DNA of 64,000 nt from Narcine bancroftii (taxonomy: Eukaryota), in the NCBI RefSeq assembly GCF_036971445.1, contig NC_091481.1, positions 65,410,001 through 65,474,000 of the forward strand, written 5' to 3'. Both the position numbers and the translations under genes were made by a program. The notes beneath the pieces are model-generated. The model was given only the letters and a program-made list of their open reading frames with translations, did no database searches and was not told the DNA's origin. Positions 579-58,482 of this stretch are shown here, piece after piece (position 1 is the stretch's first letter; every line of letters begins with the position of its first letter).

Positions 579-2279
579 AGCGACGCCATGTACAAGTCAC
601 CGGGGGGGCAAGGGTGTACCCAACGTGGGCCTCATCCTGATGACCACCTTCATGAGTGGCTGCATCAGGCTGTGCGTGGAACCAAGGTACGAGGGTACCA
701 AGCCCCGCTACGTGCTGAGGTTGTACCAGTCCCAAGTGTTGCAAAGGATAGGCCTGGCCCCGCTGCCACGCAGCACCCCAGTTAGCTGGACGTTGCCGCA
801 CTACCTTCATGGAAAGGTTTGACACCTGAAGGTAGAAACTCACGTGAATAGGGTGGTGAAGAAGGCTTTTAGTATGCTGGCCTTTATCAATCATTGCATG
901 GAATATAGGTGTTGGGAGGTGATGTTGAGACTGTATAAGGCGTTGGTGCGGCCTAATTTGGAGTTCTGTGTGCAGTTCTGGTCGCCTAATTAGAGGAAGG
1001 ATATAAACAGAGTGGAGAGAGTGCAGAGAAGGTTGACCAGAATGTTACCTGGGTTTAAGCATCTAGAGTATAGGGAGAGATTGGACAGATTAGGTCTTTA
1101 TTCTTTGGAGCGTAGAAGGTTGAGAGGGGATTTGATAGAAGTATTTAAGATTATGAAAGGGATAGACAGAGTGGATGTGGATAGACTATTTCCGTTAAGA
1201 GGAGGAAAGATTAAAACAAGAGGACATGAGTTAAGAATTAAGGGGCAGAGGTTTAGAGATAACATGAGGGGGAACTTCTTTACTCAGAGAGTGGTAGCCG
1301 TGTGGAATGATCTTCCGGGAGAAATAGTGGCGGCGGAGTCAATTGTATTATTTAAGAAAAGGTTGGACAGGTATATGGATGAGAAGAAGATGGAGGGTTA
1401 TGGGCATTGTGCAGGGAGGTGGGACTAGAAAGGGGTGTTTGGTTCGGTGCGGACTAGAAGGGCCTAATGGCCTGTTTCCGTGCTGTAATTGTTGTTATAT
1501 GTTACAAGGCCATCAGGCAATGGTCAGCACCGAACATACTGCAGAAACTGAGAGCCGAGGACTCGATGAACCTAGTGATGTTGTTCCCTGAACTGAACAT
1601 CCAGGTTATCTGGCAGAATGCTCATCGCCAGGGCTCACAAACAAGCCTGGCTGGCGGTGAGGGGAGCCATCCCAGTCAGATCCTTCCTGTACAACCAGAA
1701 CAACACATGTGCTGCCCTCGAGACGTGTGGAGTGGAGTGGAGACAGTCGTCCACCTCTTTGCCAAATGCAGATTCGCCCAGAGTGTGTGGAGAAGGGTGC
1801 AAGGGTCCTTGTCACGGTTCATCCCCAACAGCAGCAGCACGACAGAGGACTCTCTGATCTGTGGGCTGTTCCCGGCAGAGTGCACATAATCAGATATCGA
1901 AAACTGGTGGAAGACCATCAACTGGGTGAAAGATGCACTTTGGTCGGCTCGAAACCTGTTGGGTCTTTCAGCGCACGGAGACGGCGGTGCTGACTGGCAC
2001 ATTCCAAGCTGTAGGAGGACGTGGCGGGGGACGCGCTGAGGCCTGGTGTGGCCAATGCAAAGGCGCCGTGGGGAAGGGTCACAGTGTGGAGACCTTCCAT
2101 CGCCGGGGCTGAGACTCAGAGAAAGTCCCTCAACCTATAGGGCTGGGCAAGGGGGGGAGGGAAGGTAATGGTGTAAATGGAACTGAATGTAACAGGCCAG
2201 GGTGATGGAAATGTATAGATATGAAAGTAAGGGTGGGAACAGACTCTGAACGGTTTTCCTTTTGTAATAGTTTATTGTG
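579..2279 (+). mobile_element. Tx1/L1-clade LINE 3' part (zf-RVT region), interrupted by a CR1, tail resumes at 3656-3685
   Basis: Degenerate ORF2 C-terminus AWLAVRGAIPVRSFLY...ETVVHLFAKCRFAQSVW...WKTINWVKDALWSARN, ending in aataaagtctatttttgg(a)n after the RTE insertion. Confidence 0.75.
824..1503 (+). mobile_element. CR1 LINE 3' fragment nested in the Tx1 element
   Basis: LVRPNLEFCVQFWSP...ERVQRRLTRMLPG...LERRRLRGDLIEVFKI...TRGHEL, with a short gttatat repeat tail. Confidence 0.9.
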
Positions 2280-3644
2280 CCCGATGGAGATGTGGGGGGG
2301 CTGGTAGTCATGGTGGGGAGCTGGCTGATGGAGGACCTCAGTTTTCTTCAGGCTGACTTCCAGGCCAAACATTTTGGCAGTTTCCGCAAAGCAGGACGTC
2401 AAGCGCTGAAGAGCTGGCTCTGAATGGGCAACTAAAGCGGCATCATCTGCAAAGAGTAGTTCACGGACAAGTTTCTCTTGTGTCTTGGTGTGAGCTTGCA
2501 GGCGCCTCAGATTGAAGAGACTGCCATCCGTGCGGTACCGGATGTAAACAGCGTCTTCATTGTTGGGGTCTTTCATGGCTTGGTTCAGCATCATGCTGAA
2601 GAAGATTGAAAAGAGGGTTGGTGCGAGAACACAGCCTTGCTTCACGCCATTGTTAATGGAGAAGGGTTCAGAGAGCTCATTGCTGTATCTGACCCGACCT
2701 TGTTGGTTTTCGTGCAGTTGGATAATCATGTTGAGGAACTTTGGGGGACATCCGATGCGCTCTAGTATTTGCCAAAGCCCTTTCCTGCTCACGGTGTCGA
2801 AGGCTTTGGTGAGGTCAACAAAGGTGATGTAGAGTCCTTTGTTTTGACCAGTTTACCTATCTCGGCTGCACCATTTCATCAGATGCAAGGATCGACAATG
2901 AGATAGACAACAGACTCGCCAAGGCAAATAGCGCCTTTGGAAGACTACACAAAAGAGTCTGGAAAAACAACCAACTGAAAAACCTCACAAAGATAAGCGT
3001 ATACAGAGCCGTTGTCATACCCACACTCCTGTTCGGCTCCGAATCATGGGTCCTCTACCGGCACCACCTACGGCTCCTAGAACGCTTCCACCAGCGTTGT
3101 CTCCGCTCCATCCTCAACATCCATTGGAGCGCTCACACCCCTAACGTCGAGGTACTCGAGATGGCAGAGGTCGACAGCATCGAGTCCACGCTGCTGAAGA
3201 TCCAGCTGCGCTGGATGGGTCACGTCTCCAGAATGGAGGACCATCGCCTTCCCAAGATCGTATTATATGGCGAGCTCTCCACTGGCCACCGTGACAGAGG
3301 TGCACCAAAGAAAAGGTACAAGGACTGCCTAAAGAAATCTCTTGGTGCCTGCCACATTGACCACCGCCAGTGGGCTGATAACGCCTCAAACCGTGCATCT
3401 TGGCGCCTCACAGTTTGGCGGGCAGCAGCCTCCTTTGAAGAAGACCGCAGAGCCCACCTCACTGACAAAAGGCAAAGGAGGAAAAACCCAACACCCAACC
3501 CCAACCAACCAATTTTCCCTTGCAACCGCTGCAATCGTGTCTGCCTGTCCCGCATCGGACTGGTCAGCCACAAACGAGCCTGCAGCTGACGTGGACTTTT
3601 TACCCCCTCCATAAATCTTCGTCCGCGAAGCCAAGCCAAAGAAG
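2280..3644 (+). mobile_element. RTE-clade LINE, 5'-truncated with 5' inversion (2280-2846 on -, 2847-3644 on +)
   Basis: The - segment encodes RT (DLTKAFDTV...GVKQGCVLAPTLF...LLFADD). The + segment continues QFTYLG...CNRCNRVCLSRIGLVSHKRAC*. GAA tail. TSD AGTTTATTGTG at 2269-2279 and 3645-3655. Confidence 0.93.
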
Positions 3645-33500: not shown

Positions 33501-33976
33501 ATTCAGCTCTTCATCCTGGGCGACACCATTGCACAACTTTATTCAAGCAGCTACTATGGCCAAACCGCGACCAAGGCTCTCTGTTGGCTGTGTAACTTCA
33601 GATAACATTTTCGTCTGCCATAAGGCAGACAGGTTCGCCATCAGAATTTTTCTGAAGCTCCTCTTACAGTCAGAGAAAGAGAAGCAAGAGTTTCCTCAAA
33701 GTCACCACGTGTCAATGGATTCACATCCAGCACCTCCCGCAGCCCCCACAGCCGCACTGTCCAGTCCAAACTATCAGCAACTAAATCCTCACTCTCTGTA
33801 TTTCTCCTTCTCCTTCCCTCAATCTATTTTCTTTTATTCCCAATCTCCCTCCTTTCCATTAGAAAGGCTGCTCCTGGTCATTGTGTTGTAGATGTGACTA
33901 TCCCTTCCACGGTTTGGCATCGGTAGTTACCGAACGGGAATTGCTGACTGTGGTTCAGTCTGTGTTTCTCCAACAG

Positions 33977-34274
33977 GCTCTTCCCCCTGAGTTTCGTCAA
34001 CATCTCCATCCACGACGTCTACAACAGACGGTTGCGACTGAAGCTGGCCAATGGTCGGACCTTCTACCTCCAGCTCTACGTTCACCCAGAATGTGAGAAC
34101 AGGGTGTTTGAGCGCTGGATGAAGCTGGTGACCCTCCTCCACGCCAACCCAGAGGAGGTGTACGGCTATGAGGCTGTGACACCCGAGATTGAGTGCATCC
34201 TGGAACAAGGCAGTGTGGAGACCTCTGTCACTGAACTCTCAGAATGGCAACTGGAACCTCCTGAGATGTCACCG
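33977..34274 (+). CDS. GARIN/FAM71-family gene, coding exon 3 (DUF3699 core)
   Basis: Acceptor tttctccaacAG, donor CCG|GTAGGT, 298 nt (phase 2 to 0). Encodes LFPLSFVNISIHDVYNRRLRLKLANGRTFYLQL...VFERWMKLV, the FAM71 'LKLATGRSFYLQL' motif. Confidence 0.92.
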
Positions 34275-35309
34275 GTAGGTCCTGGGCTTTGGTCAATGGT
34301 AGATAGATGCTCCTTTGAAAACCAGGCCATTACCACCCATCGAGCTGCCATCCTCTTGGTTCTTCTCCCTCATCCCTCTCCCTAGGCATCCTTCTCATCT
34401 GGATGCGATTCATTAGAATCAATTCCTTGCCCCTACTCCATTCCACCCCACTTGTATTCTCTCCTCTAGAAGAAACCCATTCGATTCCAGTCAAATGAAC
34501 ACAGTTCAAGCCACCAGGCTCACCAATAACCTCATCTGCAGGGCTGGATTAAGGTCAACTGATGCCTTAAGCACAGCCCAACAATGGTTCCCCCTCACCC
34601 TTCCATTGTCTAACTTATTAAGCCTCAATAAGTGCTGAATGTGAAACAATAGATTAAAAATTCAGTTTTCTTCTACGCCAGACCCCTAATATATATTTGT
34701 CTCTCAGTCTATTCTCCACGCAAATCAATATGGAGCACACTAGAAATGTCCAATGGGGTTTCAGCAGAGGTAACATTTGATGCTGAATGTCATGACCACA
34801 TTGAATTTAACCTTTTTGGTCATATGTTCATTACCGTGCTGTGCATTTATGTACATTCAGAATAAAAACAAGTGGCCAAACCCAGTTCAATATGGGCCCA
34901 AAAGAGCGAACCAACATTGGCTGAAGCTCTTCACAGCAGAGGAAACAATTCAATACTCAACTCAATCCAGCAATCGTTTCCTTGCTCAAACCACAGTTCC
35001 AACTCAGCACTGAGACCCAAGGAGATGCTGACCCCTCTCAGATGATTTTGCAGTTGCCATGGGCCCTTTTTGAGCTGGAGTCGAGCCTGCCTTGCTTCCT
35101 GACCAATATGAAACATTCAGCCAATCCGTCAGGAGAAAGATATTTTCTAGTGACCTGCTGTGCTGGAATCTTGTGGTGCACACGTCGGCTATCCTGTTTC
35201 CTCAACCACAAATGGAATGAGGTTGGAGCTCGTGGGTGAATACTGAAGGAGTGAAAGGCACTCATTTAAGTTTTTATTTACTTCATTAAAACAAAACCCC
35301 TCGCTATTT

Positions 35310-40802: not shown

Positions 40803-41555
40803 GTATGGCATTCGACTGACAGAGGTTCTGTTGTTGGGTAAAGAATGAGTAGGAGAGTGGCAGGGAGCTAGTCAGATCCTTCAGAGTTGACCCTGAGGTC
40901 CTGATAGCAAGAGACATTGGAACTGGACCATCCTGTGCAAACATCTGGGTGTCTATTCCAACCTTGAGCTATTCTCAGCCATTGTCTTCTTCCCAATTCT
41001 TAAAATGTGCTTCATCCCCAGTTAGAAGGTTGTCCTTCTCCACATGTGCCGGCAGACCCTCAATTCCCACTATTTTCTGATTTTTCAGAGAACTTGTGGC
41101 AAAAACTTTCACTTCACTCTTCTCTAATTCGTAATGACCTGGAGATCAGGTCTCGAGGCTTCAACTGCTTCTTTCTTTGGGGGTCCTCTGCATTGATCAA
41201 ATGGAGTAATTTTTTAAAACATACAGCATGGCAACAGGTCATTTTTGCCCAGAAGTCTGTGCCACCCAATTTACACCTTACTAACCTACACCCCCAGTAA
41301 TTTTAAACGGCGGGAGGAAATCAGACCCCCTGGGAAAAACCCATGCAAACACGGGGAGAACGTACAAACTCCTCACAGACAGCGTGGGATTCAAACCCGG
41401 ACCCAATCGCTAGCGCTATAAAGGCATAAAATGCCAACCGTGCTGCCCAAATCAGTTTTGCCATGGTTGTCATGACAGCCACCCACTTTATGCCATCAAT
41501 GAAGGTCCCCAAATTCTTGTGGTGCTTGAGCAAATCTCTTCTCTTTTCTTGCCAG

Positions 41556-42049
41556 GGCCAATAGGTTTCAACTTCTTCAAGGGAGACAAGGGTTCCAAAG
41601 AGAAGGCTCTGAAGGAAGGCCATAAAGCCAGGCCAGCGTCTGCTCCTCTCCCAGTTAATGAGGAGAAACCAAAGCTAGAGGAGGACAGGGAGGGAAAGGG
41701 TGACAGGGAGGAAGGCAAAGGAAGGCAAGAGAAATCCAAAGGCAAGGGGGACAAAGCGGAGAAAGAAAGGAAGAGGAAGGATAGGGAGAAGGAGAGAGAG
41801 AAACTACAGAAACAGAAGGAAAAGGAGCGGCAGCTTAAGGAGAAACAGCAAGAAAAAGATGACAGGAAGCAGAAAGGGAGGGAGGAGAAGGGCAAGGTTA
41901 AAGAGAAGAGGCAACAAGAAAAGGAAGAGAGGCAGCGGAAAAGGGAGGCCAGGCAGAGGGAGAAAGAAGAGAAGAAGCAGCGAGAGCGGGAAGACAGGAA
42001 GCAGAGAGGGATGGAGGACAAAAAGGTCAAAGAGAAAAAGAAACAATGA
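41556..42049 (+). CDS. GARIN/FAM71-family gene, last coding exon (K/E/R/Q-rich helical tail)
   Basis: Acceptor ctcttttcttgccAG, phase 1, open to TGA at 42047-42049, with AATAAA about 160 nt downstream. Confidence 0.78.
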
Positions 42050-47882: not shown

Positions 47883-47910
47883 CTACTTTCTCTCGATGGA
47901 CCGGGAGCGA
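47883..47910 (-). CDS. SRSF3: SRSF3 last coding exon
   Basis: ctccatgcAG|T CGC TCC CGG TCC ATC GAG AGA AAG TAG = (S)RSRSIERK* (human SRSRSNERK*). Confidence 0.93.
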
Positions 47911-49725: not shown

Positions 49726-49812
49726 CTATGCGATCTGGAGAAAGATCTTGATGGCTCCCGTCTATCCCGTGAAAGCGAACGCTCACGTCGCCTGTTCTCC
49801 CTGGAGCGAGAC
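49726..49812 (-). CDS. SRSF3: SRSF3 RS-domain exon (87 nt)
   Basis: cactatAG|G TCT CGC...CAT AG|GTTAGT. Encodes [28 protein letters not shown], matching human [28 protein letters not shown]. Confidence 0.95.
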
Positions 49813-53814: not shown

Positions 53815-54028
53815 ACATGGTTCCATTACTGTCACATAATACTACATTTAGACTGTAACACACATGAAATCCTTTAACTTGTGTCTACCATAAGGAAGGC
53901 AGAGTGTTTCCACTTTGACAAGTACCCCTCACAGAAACCTACGGCACCTGGAGTTCCTACGTGTACTGACCAGGTCTGAATCTGCTTAGCTTCAGAGATC
54001 AATCTCAGGCATGGTTTGACCTTATGCC
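53815..54028 (-). mobile_element. 5S rRNA-derived SINE (SINE3-like) or 5S pseudogene with appended tail
   Basis: The - strand gatctctgaagctaagcagattcagacctggtcagtac...gaactccaggtgccgtaggttt matches 5S rRNA (A box, intermediate element, 3' end), followed by about 120 nt of non-5S tail. Confidence 0.75.
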
Positions 54029-54381
54029 TAAATACAAATCATACTCATTGGAGGCTCGTTTAAAAATTTGAAAACAAAACTGGGAACACAACGTAGGTCC
54101 ACCTGCATTCAACAGCACTACGTCAAGTGCACAGCCTGCTTAAGAACCCAGTGCACTTTTAACGTTTTGCTTTCCTTAAGAGGACATTCAATAGATCTAG
54201 CACACACTCAACAGGAGCAGCAATTGATTCACATTCCAGAATTTGCAGGCATCAATCCAATAGAAGTGTCAAAGAGCCAAGAGTGGAAGGGGCTGAAAAG
54301 ACTACAAGGGATGGGAAGGCGGAGGAGGAAAACACAAAAGTGAATTCTCGATTTAAAATGTAAAAGGCAGATATAACTTAC

Positions 54382-54950
54382 GAGAACGGCCAACATTATA
54401 GCAAATCAACAGCCATCTGCAGGGCATGTCGTGTGACGATGGTGGTGGGGAGGTTAAAAAAAAGGGCCCTGACCATCTGGATTCATGCACGATGTAAAGT
54501 GTAGAATTAAATAAAAAATGGTATTAATTTATCTGCTGTGTATTGGCACGAAGACCAATCGAAGCAGCCCCTTTTAGAGTGCGTTGGTACCAGTTTACTG
54601 CCGATGCAGGCCTTGGGTTTGCAAAGGCTGGCGGACAACCACACCCCACTGATGGATCGAGAGGATTTCAGATGGTTATTTTTTCCCCCGTTGGCTGTTT
54701 GGTCGTTATGGCCGCCGGCAGAAACAGTAGAGAAGGGATGGTTGTTTATAAACAACGTGCTGGGGTACGCAGGAAAAGACCCAAACTTGTCGGTCCAGCG
54801 GCTGGCCATTCGGTTGCACACACTCACAGATACACGTGAATGCTGGACATTTGAAGTGTGAGGCGTTCGTTTAGATTGGGACGCGCTGATCCCCTGATGT
54901 AGACACAACCAGTTGATTGGCTAATGTAGACTCGGAGAAGTGGACGTTCT
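54382..54950 (-). other. SRSF3: SRSF3 poison (NMD-coupled) cassette exon, a conserved element
   Basis: Acceptor ccccatttcAG at 54952-54951 and strong donor |GTAAGT at 54381-54376. CTCCGAGTCTACATTAGCCAATCAACT...GATCAGCGCGTCCCAATC resembles the human poison exon as recalled. In-frame TGA at 54826-54824. The 3' boundary is less certain than the 5' boundary. Confidence 0.75.
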
Positions 54951-57900
54951 CTGAAATGGGGCAGGGGGTGAGTGCGTGGGTTTCAACTGCACATTTCATC
55001 AAAAGAAAAAAAAATGCACAGAAACACCAGTTACTATCTAACCAATCACGATGCATTTTCATTTAACTTAACTTTTCAATATACACATACACACCGACCG
55101 GTATTAGATTTAAAACTTCATCCAACATTGAATATATAAAGAGCAAAGAAAATATTTTTTTCATTTTTTTTTAAAGCGGTTCAGCAGTCGAGTCGAAATA
55201 TTCGGTCTTTTTCTGAATCTGTAAACAAATCTCTAAACATTATCCCACTCCAATATAAAACTTCAGGCGTCGACATTATACCCGCGTTGCTGTGCATTAT
55301 TTTGGACAGTCACAAACCCAAGCAAGCGAACCTTGTGCATTTAAAACAGATTAAACCATTTTAACTTTTATTTTCAAATAGCCACATGTCATTAGGTCAA
55401 ACTCCTGGAACTCTCCTAGCAGCATTGTGGGTAAACCCTCACCTCAGAGACTGCAAGAAGACAGCTCCCCGCCACCTTCTCAAGGGTATTAGGGACAGGT
55501 AATTAAAAGTTGGAACCTATGAAGCCCACATCCCTTGAATTAAAATAAAAATGGAAAATTCAGAGGAAGTAGGAAATCTATCAAAAACAGCCTTAATTCA
55601 GAACCAATAAATCAAGTAACTAACAAGGTTAAATCTAATCCTCAAAGACCTTGTCAGGACTGATAGGAAAACAGCTCAAGGCATAAAGAAGCTCTGAAAG
55701 CTAACCTATTCCATTCTTATACCAAACCCAACATTTAGTACCTGATCTGAAACAATTTAAGTAGCCATCGTTTTTTTTTTGGAGGGGGAAAAAGGAGAGA
55801 AGAGAGGAATTGTTTAATCAGCCTCACATATTCCAAACAATGAAAGCAAGTCTCATGGGCTCATTTACTATCCAGAAACCACTTCTGAAGGGATAGCCAG
55901 GTGCACAGCCATAAGTGCATATGTTTTGAAGACAGAAGAATTGGCCTGTGATCCCTACAATTCCATTTGTGAGTGGCCACTAAGGAAGTTCTCATTTGGG
56001 ATTCTAGTTTTTAAAACATGAAGTTCCCAACATTTATTTTTTAAATGTACTAGGCAGTAAGGGCTAAGATCTGGAAGATTTTGCCATTGGTTAAAAGGGA
56101 GAGATTGGGGGGATAGAGAGAGGAGAGAAAGAAAACAAGAAATAACTTCTATACAGGAAGGATGGAGAATTTTTGAACATATTACAGACAAGAGGATATG
56201 CCAAACATCTCTTTAGCATCACCTTGAGAAGGGTGGTGGGTGGCAGTGACTTGCTTTTAACTGCAAACCAATATGTACAATTAATTGAAATAAAAAGCCA
56301 CATTTTAACAGACAGTGCAACTAGAATAAATTGGAATTATGATTTTTGAACCCAACCCAAAACGTGGAGTTATCCATGGATGCTGCCTGACTCGTTGAGT
56401 CCCTCCAGCTTCTCTTTGTTCCCTCAGGTTCCAGTCAACAATTTTTGTGTTTCTTTATGATTTTTGATGGTTATGATGAAGCCAGGCAACATGGCACAGG
56501 GAAAAGAATGAACAATTCAATTATCTTTCAGAGACCTGCATTCTCATGAAAAGCCATCAACCTTAAATGTTGACATGCTCTCTCTCACTCTCTATCTCTA
56601 CAGATGCTGCTCTATTTGCTCAGGACTATCAGATATTCAGCATCTGAATTATTTTCATTTTGAGAATTTACCTTCTGACATCTGTCAGAAAGTCAATTTT
56701 ATGCAGATACACTGGGAGAAGAATTTGTATACGAATAAATCCTTATTTCTTGCAGACTTTTTTTCTTCTTTAGGGTAGTTTCCTATCACAGTCTTGGAAT
56801 ATGCTTTCTTCTTGAGTCAGAAGTCACTAAATGTTTTGGCAATGTGACTTGACATATTTGATCTTCTCCTCACATGTTCTTGACACACGTCCAGATGAAG
56901 TTCACCAAATACCCAACAGGAACAGAGGACAACCAAGCTATTTTCCCAATTATTTTTAAACCATAATGATTATTAGAACAAGCATTGTTAATTTTACTGG
57001 AATCCCTTCATTTCCTTAAATCTGCAGTAAGTTTAACAGTCAATAAGTGTACTGTATACCAAATCATCCGTTTTGGACTAGCAGTGGAGGCATTTATCAA
57101 ACGTCTTATCTATCTTAGTTGTAGTAGAATCAGTGAGGCATGAGTAAATACTGGGAGAACATTATACATTATAAAACACAAGAGAATAACTTCAAGGTAG
57201 TAATTTGTTTCAAGTCCTGATGGCAACTGAGTACCTGACTGTAATTTATTATTCTAACATTTTCTGCCTTGAAATCACTTCACAGAAGCATTATTTATAT
57301 TAAATGAAAACTCAACTCAAGTAATTAAATAATTAAACATAGCTTAATAAAACAGTGCAGTGCTGCTGTGGTAGCAAGACCTTAGCCAAAGTGTTAAAAG
57401 ATCTGGAAGAAATTTACAAGATCTTTAGATACTTTAATGTGAGAACTCCTTTACTGCACTTCCTAAATATCCTTTACTGTAAAAGGTTCTCAAGAGCATC
57501 TACTTCAATCCAGATATTATCTGGGTGAGGAAGTAGCCAACTAAATCTTTGGTTTTAAAAGGGTATGCTATCCTGAATACACTCTTTTTGTTCAACCTAG
57601 ATTCAACTCTGGTGCAGAACAGCATCTCCACTCCGCAAACAATTGTAATTTTGCTATAGTTTAGATTCTATCTGGATTTCAAAATCAATTCAAAAGATTT
57701 GATCGGTTTCTTCACTATTTGAGGCAATTTGTACATTTATGGCATGTGATTATGAAATTTAATTAGACTTAATACATTGAATTATCCCATGCACTTAGAT
57801 TAGCTGTCCAATGGGCACCTTGAACCAAACATTTAGAGTTTAAAAGGTACACTGGAGCTGCTATCAACACACTTTTGACAAAGATTGGTAGATTTGATGT

Positions 57901-58338: not shown

Positions 58339-58482
58339 CTCGAGTAGCGTCGCCGCTGTGGGCTGCGATGGCGATAATCATCATAACGGGGTCGCCTGGT
58401 CCAGGGAGGTGGTGGGCCACGGTAACGCTTCCTCCTTTCACCAGATGACAGCTCCACTCGGACACGAACGCCACACAAGGTT
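58339..58482 (-). CDS. SRSF3: SRSF3 (SRp20) exon encoding the end of the RRM and the linker
   Basis: tgttgcAG|...AG|GTGAGA, 144 nt, phase 2 to 2. Encodes [47 protein letters not shown] (human as recalled: [35 protein letters not shown]). No zinc knuckle, so not SRSF7. Confidence 0.95.

What the first reader, a model, noticed from the sequence alone, without database searches (positions are those of the whole stretch)
54382..54960. SRSF3 poison exon with a shifted stop codon and an internal donor that would make it a coding exon
Seen: spliced to the upstream exon, the cassette reads R-ERPLLRVYISQSTGCVYIRGSARPNLNERLTLQMSSIHVYL-TGA. That first stop (54826-54824) overlaps a consensus donor, CT|GTGAGT. 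Using this donor gives a 123-nt, stop-free, phase 2 to 2 exon (54950-54828), whereas the distal GTAAGT (54381) gives a 569-nt NMD exon. Known (recalled): the human exon has CTC TGA ATC TGC ATT AGC, where this sequence has CTC CGA GTC TAC ATT AGC in the same frame, and SRSF3 autoregulates through this exon. Inference: the autoregulatory element is ancient, but here it may be a three-way switch (skip, poison, or a 41-aa insert between the RRM and RS domains).
Basis: partly seen in the sequence, partly recalled or inferred. Interest (0 to 1): 0.7.

Follow-up and report, generated by a model that had tools for sequence, protein, structure and literature searches.

The report
Poison exon in shark SRSF3 paralogue
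A second, shark-and-ray copy of the splicing-factor gene SRSF3 splices in a highly conserved 605-base exon whose first full codon is a stop, so it is likely an ordinary self-limiting off-switch like the human one, and the proposed protein-coding short version of the exon was not seen.

Summary
The exon is real, but its boundary and the three-way-switch reading are wrong. The exon is 605 nt and reads AG|T TGA, so translation stops at its first full codon (118 aa). A RefSeq model of epaulette shark ends the same way. No joint at 54950 or at the internal GTGAGT (54828) was listed in any of 8 runs; contigs drop rare forms, so minor use is not excluded. The 41 codons show no coding signature. The gene is not the human orthologue but an SRSF3-like paralogue of sharks, rays and chimaera. 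The true orthologue lies on another contig and also has CGA at the 'shifted' codon, while frog and rattlesnake models read Trp there, so the stop position simply varies in this exon. Verdict: a conserved poison exon, likely NMD-coupled and autoregulatory (both inferred), in a little-studied paralogue that kept a diverged copy of the ancestral exon. Low to modest interest.

The parts
58339..58482 (-). Upstream coding exon (second half of the RRM and linker, 144 nt, ends in phase 2); the first coding exon lies beyond the window (L002:6499-6291)
   Evidence: joints at 58339; RRM_1 and SRSF3 matches of the first coding exon
54987..55014 (-). 3' splice site in use: T-rich tract 55014-55001 and CAG ending at 54987
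   Evidence: joint 58339>54986 with GT..AG ends in X3, X4; upstream-exon letters as loose ends behind 54988 in X14, X20
54382..54986 (-). Poison cassette exon as spliced, 605 nt, C-rich (29% C against 17% in the introns)
   Evidence: one contig holds upstream exon, whole cassette and downstream exon in X4 (665 nt) and X20 (666 nt); 96-99% alike in four other organisms
54983..54985 (-). Premature stop TGA, exon bases 2-4 (AG|T TGA); 118-aa product, stop 601 nt above the next junction
   Evidence: RefSeq model P0015 (118 aa, ends YSS, 114 of 118 identical); no listed difference in 4 of 4 other organisms
54951..54952 (-).
   Evidence: no joint or loose end listed in 8 runs; no listed difference at the AG in four other organisms
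54874..54938 (-). Core shared with the poison exon of the canonical SRSF3 (75% over 64 nt); holds CGA 54934-54932 and GGA 54892-54890, where the canonical copy has its stop
54822..54827 (-). Internal GTGAGT (proposed donor), kept in five organisms, absent from the canonical copy, not seen used
54376..54381 (-). 5' splice site in use (GTAAGT); the letters behind it resemble those behind the donor of the canonical copy's poison exon
   Evidence: joint 54382>49812 in X4; downstream-exon letters as loose ends in X10, X20
49726..49812 (-). Downstream RS exon (87 nt)
   Evidence: joints 58339>49812 and 49726>47910 in 4 of 4 runs
47883..47910 (-). Coding part of the last exon, with the normal stop (155-aa skip product)

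Best explanation
This is a 605-nt cassette exon (54986-54382) of a cartilaginous-fish SRSF3 paralogue that puts a stop at its first full codon and likely sends the mRNA to nonsense-mediated decay, likely under control of SRSF3-type proteins themselves. Shown: skipping gives the 155-aa protein; inclusion uses 54986 and 54382 and ends the frame at 118 aa, 601 nt above the next junction; the exon is 96-99% alike in five sharks or rays and shares a core and a donor with the poison exon of the canonical SRSF3. Inferred: decay by NMD (50-55 nt rule, established knowledge), feedback by binding of the protein to the C-rich exon (by analogy with mammalian SRSF3), and the history: after duplication this copy came to use an acceptor that carries its own stop, so the older downstream stop could be lost (GGA now) and the 41 open codons are a by-product. 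The order of these events is not shown.
For: Joints: 58339>54986 in X3, X4, X14, X20; 54382>49812 in X4, X10, X20; skip in X1-X4. Whole cassette in one contig in X4 and X20. RefSeq P0015 ends at the predicted residue. None of the 139 proteins fetched holds the insert; only three canonical SRSF3 poison-exon tails share 5-residue words with it; a direct search with the 41 residues found none (weak). Variable sites 4 of 123 in the proposed coding part against 25 of 482 in the rest (p 0.48); 2 of 4 synonymous (p 0.42). Contig cover of the intron below the exon is higher than that of the next intron in X1-X3 (16-47 against 1-5) and patchy in X4, a hint of retention next to the exon as described for SR genes (PMC4379411, passages). 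Mammalian SRSF3 exon 4 mechanism: PMC11193772 and PMC7544984, passages.
Against: No NMD-inhibition or binding data for any shark. All runs are contigs: rare isoforms are dropped (X1 and X2 lack even the 54986 joint), and 19 joints and 355 loose ends were not displayed. CNYC motifs are 2.5 times denser than in the introns but not above shuffles of the exon (30 against 28.4). The AG at 54951 and the GTGAGT are kept in all five organisms, and their in-frame stop-free pairing arises in only 0.7-2.6% of shuffles.
Confidence: 0.88

Rival explanations
1. Three-way switch: besides skip and poison, a nested 123-nt coding exon (54950-54828) is used in some tissue or state and adds 41 residues between the RRM and the RS domain.
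For: Both sites exist, are in frame and are unchanged in 5 of 5 organisms; none of the 4 variable sites makes a stop and no indel falls in the 123 nt; shuffles give such a pairing in 0.7-2.6%; the AG at 54951 has 16 of 20 pyrimidines upstream.
Against: 0 of 8 runs list either joint; one contig runs unbroken over both places in 8 of 8. The whole exon is 96-99% conserved, so keeping the sites is expected; four random transitions spare the frame 91% of the time. No annotated isoform among the 15 listed of 17 cluster members plus chimaera entries. The donor has no exonic match to U1 (6 of 11, the lowest of the five donors compared whose boundary was set correctly, the canonical copy's included) and is missing from the canonical copy.
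Confidence: 0.05
2. The included form mainly escapes decay and works through a truncated 118-aa RRM-only protein, or through nuclear intron-retained RNA that holds SRSF3-type proteins, rather than through NMD.
For: A truncated SRSF3-TR protein is reported in human cells under stress (PMC11193772, passages); contigs cover the introns beside the exon in several runs; RefSeq annotates the 118-aa product.
Against: The stop is 601 nt above the next junction; the same paper says most exon-4 mRNA is degraded; there is no ATG-led frame into the RS exon (4 codons after the last stop), so no SRSF7-like split ORF from within the exon's end; automatic annotation is no proof of a protein.
Confidence: 0.07

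Closest known systems
Mammalian SRSF3 (SRp20) exon 4, autoregulatory poison cassette (PMC11193772 and PMC7544984, passages)
   Same: Cassette in the same intron, between the RRM-linker exon and the RS exons; in-frame stop; product lacks the RS domain; shares a 64-nt core and a similar donor with the canonical copy of this genome, whose frame matches Xenopus and Crotalus SRSF3 exon-4 tails at 20 and 21 of 24 residues.
   Different: Host gene is a paralogue (155 aa, lacks the short RS exon); exon is 605 nt against 456 in human (951 minus 495 bp in PMC11193772) and 469 in the canonical copy here; stop comes at exon base 2-4 instead of 24 codons in; most of the exon no longer aligns with the canonical one.
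SRSF4/SRSF6 shared poison exon and turnover of unproductive splicing after duplication (Lareau and Brenner 2015, PMC4379411, passages)
   Same: Two paralogues keep a homologous poison exon from their ancestor; each became strongly constrained; introns beside the exon tend to be retained.
   Different: Different SR subfamily; here the paralogue was found only in cartilaginous fishes, and the stop moved by use of another acceptor rather than by a new exon in a new intron.
RefSeq 'SRSF3-like isoform X2' of Hemiscyllium ocellatum (XP_060705339.1, P0015)
   Same: 118 aa, same last residues as the predicted inclusion product (114 of 118 identical).
   Different: An automatic model with no functional study; its exon boundaries were not seen, only the protein.

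Membership tests
SR-gene poison cassette exon (AS-NMD) | Both skipped and included in transcripts, with GT-AG ends | tested here: met
   skip in 4 of 4 runs, inclusion joints in 4 and 3 of 8 runs; runs are only guessed to be RNA, but inclusion joints cannot come from the intronless copy on C24, which lacks the exon
SR-gene poison cassette exon (AS-NMD) | In-frame stop more than 50-55 nt above a downstream junction | tested here: met
   601 nt to the next junction, 688 to the last
SR-gene poison cassette exon (AS-NMD) | High nucleotide conservation without a coding pattern | tested here: met
   96-99% alike in four other organisms; 7 indel rows, all outside the first 280 nt; no excess of synonymous change (only 4 sites in the proposed frame, so low power)
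SR-gene poison cassette exon (AS-NMD) | Stabilised when NMD is blocked | not testable with these tools
   no such run listed
SR-gene poison cassette exon (AS-NMD) | Inclusion driven by the gene's own protein | tested here: inconclusive
   exon is C-rich, CNYC (motif recalled) 5.0 per 100 nt against about 1.9 in introns, but not above shuffles; no binding data
SRSF3 family | One RRM plus RS domain, no zinc knuckle, closest to SRSF3 | tested here: met
   best PDB match SRSF3 (E 3e-40) over SRSF7 (2e-28); no knuckle in the linker exon
Orthologue of human SRSF3 | Best-matching copy in the genome, short RS exon present, CDKN1 neighbour (neighbourhood recalled) | tested here: not met
   the C11 copy has the canonical linker, a 42-nt RS exon, the canonical poison exon and a CDI gene 97 kb away; the window gene has none of these and groups with 'SRSF3-like' proteins of sharks, rays and chimaera (98-100% support)
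Vertebrate whole-genome-duplication ohnologue | Duplication older than the split of bony and cartilaginous fishes, paralogous neighbours | tested here: inconclusive
   tree leaves the clade's position open; no CDI or BTB_3 gene on C27, copine genes on both C11 and C27 but tens of Mb away; present in chimaera, absent from the bony-vertebrate rows among the best 120 of 257 hits
Dual-use (coding or poison) exon with alternative 5' splice site | Internal donor and in-frame acceptor both used | tested here: not met
   0 of 8 runs; contigs cannot exclude rare use

The most novel reading that the evidence does not exclude
A coding exon is nested inside a conserved poison exon: the unchanged AG at 54951 and GTGAGT at 54827 are used together in a tissue or state not sampled, turning the off-switch into a 196-aa SRSF3 variant with a 41-residue spacer between RRM and RS domain.
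Probability: 0.05. Interest if true: 0.65.

Novelty: new member of a known kind. Interest (0 to 1): 0.25.

Why it matters
As it stands, it is a tidy evolutionary example. Cartilaginous fishes carry two SRSF3 genes, each with its own poison exon descended from one ancestor. The canonical exon keeps the reading seen in frog and snake; the paralogue's exon shares only a 64-nt core and the donor, yet is now 96-99% fixed among sharks and rays. The shared core points to the part of the SRSF3 poison exon most worth mutating when asking what ultraconservation protects, and the stop sits in at least three places across copies, which says that its exact position is not what is conserved. The surprising claim, a coding exon inside a poison exon, is not supported.

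Tried and rejected
Acceptor at 54950 or 54948: neither seen; 54986 is. Internal donor at 54828: not seen in 8 runs. Protein search with the 41 residues among longer proteins: 1 candidate, none at E 1 or better (weak); no Pfam family. Run search: no holder on record as RNA; 8 of the 22 listed runs were laid. DNA search of the genome with the exon found only itself; the diverged copy on C11 was found through the protein. SRSF7-like split ORF from the exon's end into the RS exon: none in either copy. A short RS exon between 58339 and 49812: three look-alikes near 53960, no joint there, skip goes straight to 49812. Which of the two AGs is homologous to the canonical acceptor: unresolved, a local alignment places the canonical start near 54973, between them. 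Origin by whole-genome duplication: inconclusive. In some searches the downstream exon and the C11 exon were cut one base off; one search corrects both, and the isoform lengths and shuffle results do not change. Literature: no paper on this paralogue or exon in searches (1 listing, a review; 0; 1, read in passages, not relevant; 0); the library lacks most subscription papers, and supplements were not read. Earlier scan notes: none near or alike.

Full report
Observation. From the AG at 54952-54951 the frame set by the upstream exon runs 41 codons to a TGA at 54826-54824 inside CT|GTGAGT, and a GTAAGT starts at 54381. On paper 54950-54828 would give a 196-aa protein. Whether these sites are used is a separate question, and it could be tested.

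The gene. The first coding exon lies just beyond the window and matches SRSF3 best. The genome holds five matches to it: this gene, an intronless copy of it on C24 made from the skip form, a canonical SRSF3 on C11, and two genes with SRSF7-type linkers. The C11 gene has the canonical linker, a 42-nt RS exon, a 469-nt poison exon and a CDKN1-type gene 97 kb away (the human neighbourhood is recalled). The window gene encodes 155 aa, 137-154 residues identical to the five 'SRSF3-like' entries of chimaera, sharks and rays compared and 101-120 to the five canonical or lamprey entries compared. Seven such 'like' proteins form one clade with 98-100% support in a 21-row tree whose deeper forks are open. 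Its diagnostic residues occur in 18 of 139 fetched proteins, all from cartilaginous fishes (only the best 120 of 257 hits were listed). So it is a paralogue older than the chimaera-shark split; whether it dates from the vertebrate genome duplications is unresolved.

Splicing. I laid 8 of 22 listed runs, all assembled contigs, four from one study of the best-matching organism and one each from four other organisms. Skipping (58339>49812) appears in 4 of 4 runs that could show it. The upstream exon joins the cassette at 54986 in X3 and X4 (joints with GT..AG ends) and in X14 and X20 (loose ends that are the end of the upstream exon): 4 of 8 runs, 3 of 5 organisms. The cassette joins the downstream exon at 54382 in X4, X10 and X20. 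X4 and X20 each hold the whole 605-nt cassette with both neighbours in one contig. No joint or loose end is listed at 54950 or 54828 in any run, and in all eight a single contig runs over both places. Limits: contigs drop rare forms (X1 and X2 lack even the 54986 joint), and one search left 19 joints and 355 loose ends undisplayed; one search was shown in full.

Consequence. The upstream exon ends in AG and the cassette begins TTGA, so the frame reads Ser-stop. The product would be 118 aa with the stop 601 nt above the next junction. An independent RefSeq model from Hemiscyllium ocellatum is 118 aa, ends in the same residues and is 114 of 118 identical. With this acceptor the internal donor would still leave the stop 155 nt above a junction. 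A coding exon needs both unseen sites at once.

Conservation. The exon is 96-99% alike in the four other organisms. TGA 54985-54983, the AG at 54951, CGA 54934-54932 and the GTGAGT show no listed difference in any; in X14 the stop lies 3-5 letters from the end of the aligned piece, where a difference might go unlisted (22 counted, 19 itemised). For the rival: shuffles give a stop-free in-frame GTRAGT in only 0.7-2.6% of cases, given that acceptor, and no indel falls in the 123 nt. An open frame of 41 codons alone arises in 26.5%.

The 'shifted' stop. The C11 poison exon shares a 64-nt core with this one (75%), in the same frame, and its donor and the letters behind it resemble those at 54381. 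It has CGA at the same codon and stops 14 codons later; the window gene has GGA at that place. Xenopus and Crotalus SRSF3 models read Trp at the codon in question and end where C11 ends; a partial Albula model ends just before it. The stop therefore sits at different places in different copies, and CGA is common to both shark genes. The internal GTGAGT is absent from C11.

Mechanism. Most likely (0.88) a two-state switch: skip gives the full protein; inclusion gives an mRNA that is predicted to be degraded by NMD, and inclusion is likely promoted by SRSF3-type proteins binding the C-rich exon, as reported for mammalian exon 4 (PMC11193772, PMC7544984; passages). The splicing and the stop are shown; decay and feedback are inferred. 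CNYC words are denser than in introns but no more than the exon's make-up predicts. Contigs cover the intron below the exon more deeply than the next intron in three of four runs, a hint of retention like that described beside SR poison exons (PMC4379411; passages); contig depth is a poor measure of level. The likely history is that this copy came to use an acceptor with its own stop, which freed the older stop; the order is not shown, and which AG is ancestral is unresolved.

Novelty. A poison exon in an SR gene, shared by paralogues, is a known kind (PMC4379411). I found no paper on this paralogue or exon (listings, with passages of PMC5766196, PMC11719525 and PMC12632421 read, none on it). 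An earlier unchecked note of this scan describes SRSF5 copies of rays that each keep a poison exon; it fits the pattern but is no evidence here. Verdict: new member of a known kind, interest 0.25; the coding-exon reading keeps about 5%.

Noticed in passing
L010:1182-1665 (G000 C24): Intronless retrocopy of the window gene, made from the skip form, 86-94% alike by exon, with a small deletion in the RS exon and the 3' UTR attached.
   Followed up: partly
L014:4698-5166 (G000 C11): Poison exon of the canonical SRSF3, 469 nt, 24 codons to the stop; frame nearly identical to Xenopus and Crotalus models. Its use was not tested with reads.
   Followed up: partly
L008 and L018 (G000 C27, 86.65 Mb); L009 and L022 (G000 C9): Two genes with SRSF7-type linkers: one on C9 with a zinc knuckle, and a second on the window's own contig, 21 Mb away. 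A second SRSF7-like copy may parallel the second SRSF3.
   Followed up: no
window 58338-49813: The window gene has no counterpart of the 42-nt RS exon of the canonical copy; a Mobula model of canonical SRSF3 (P0035) skips that exon too.
   Followed up: partly
window 54381-49813 and 58338-54987: Introns beside the poison exon are covered by long contigs (up to 4.9 kb) in the four runs, unlike the next intron: possible retention.
   Followed up: partly
window 33948-34385 (+): Exon-sized match to Pfam PF12480 GARIL_Rab2_bd (E 7.5e-16): a GARIN-type gene on the opposite strand below the SRSF3-like gene.
   Followed up: partly
window 994-3589: LINE-type pieces; 2133-2852 (-) matches RVT_1 (E 6e-22).
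   Followed up: no
window 41414-42049 (+): A 211-codon open frame rich in Lys and Glu; may be a low-complexity exon of the neighbouring gene or a repeat.
   Followed up: no
proteins P0020, P0002: Other annotated isoforms of this paralogue: a 14-residue insert before the last exon in a skate and one extra Ser at the junction to the RS exon in a sawshark.
   Followed up: no
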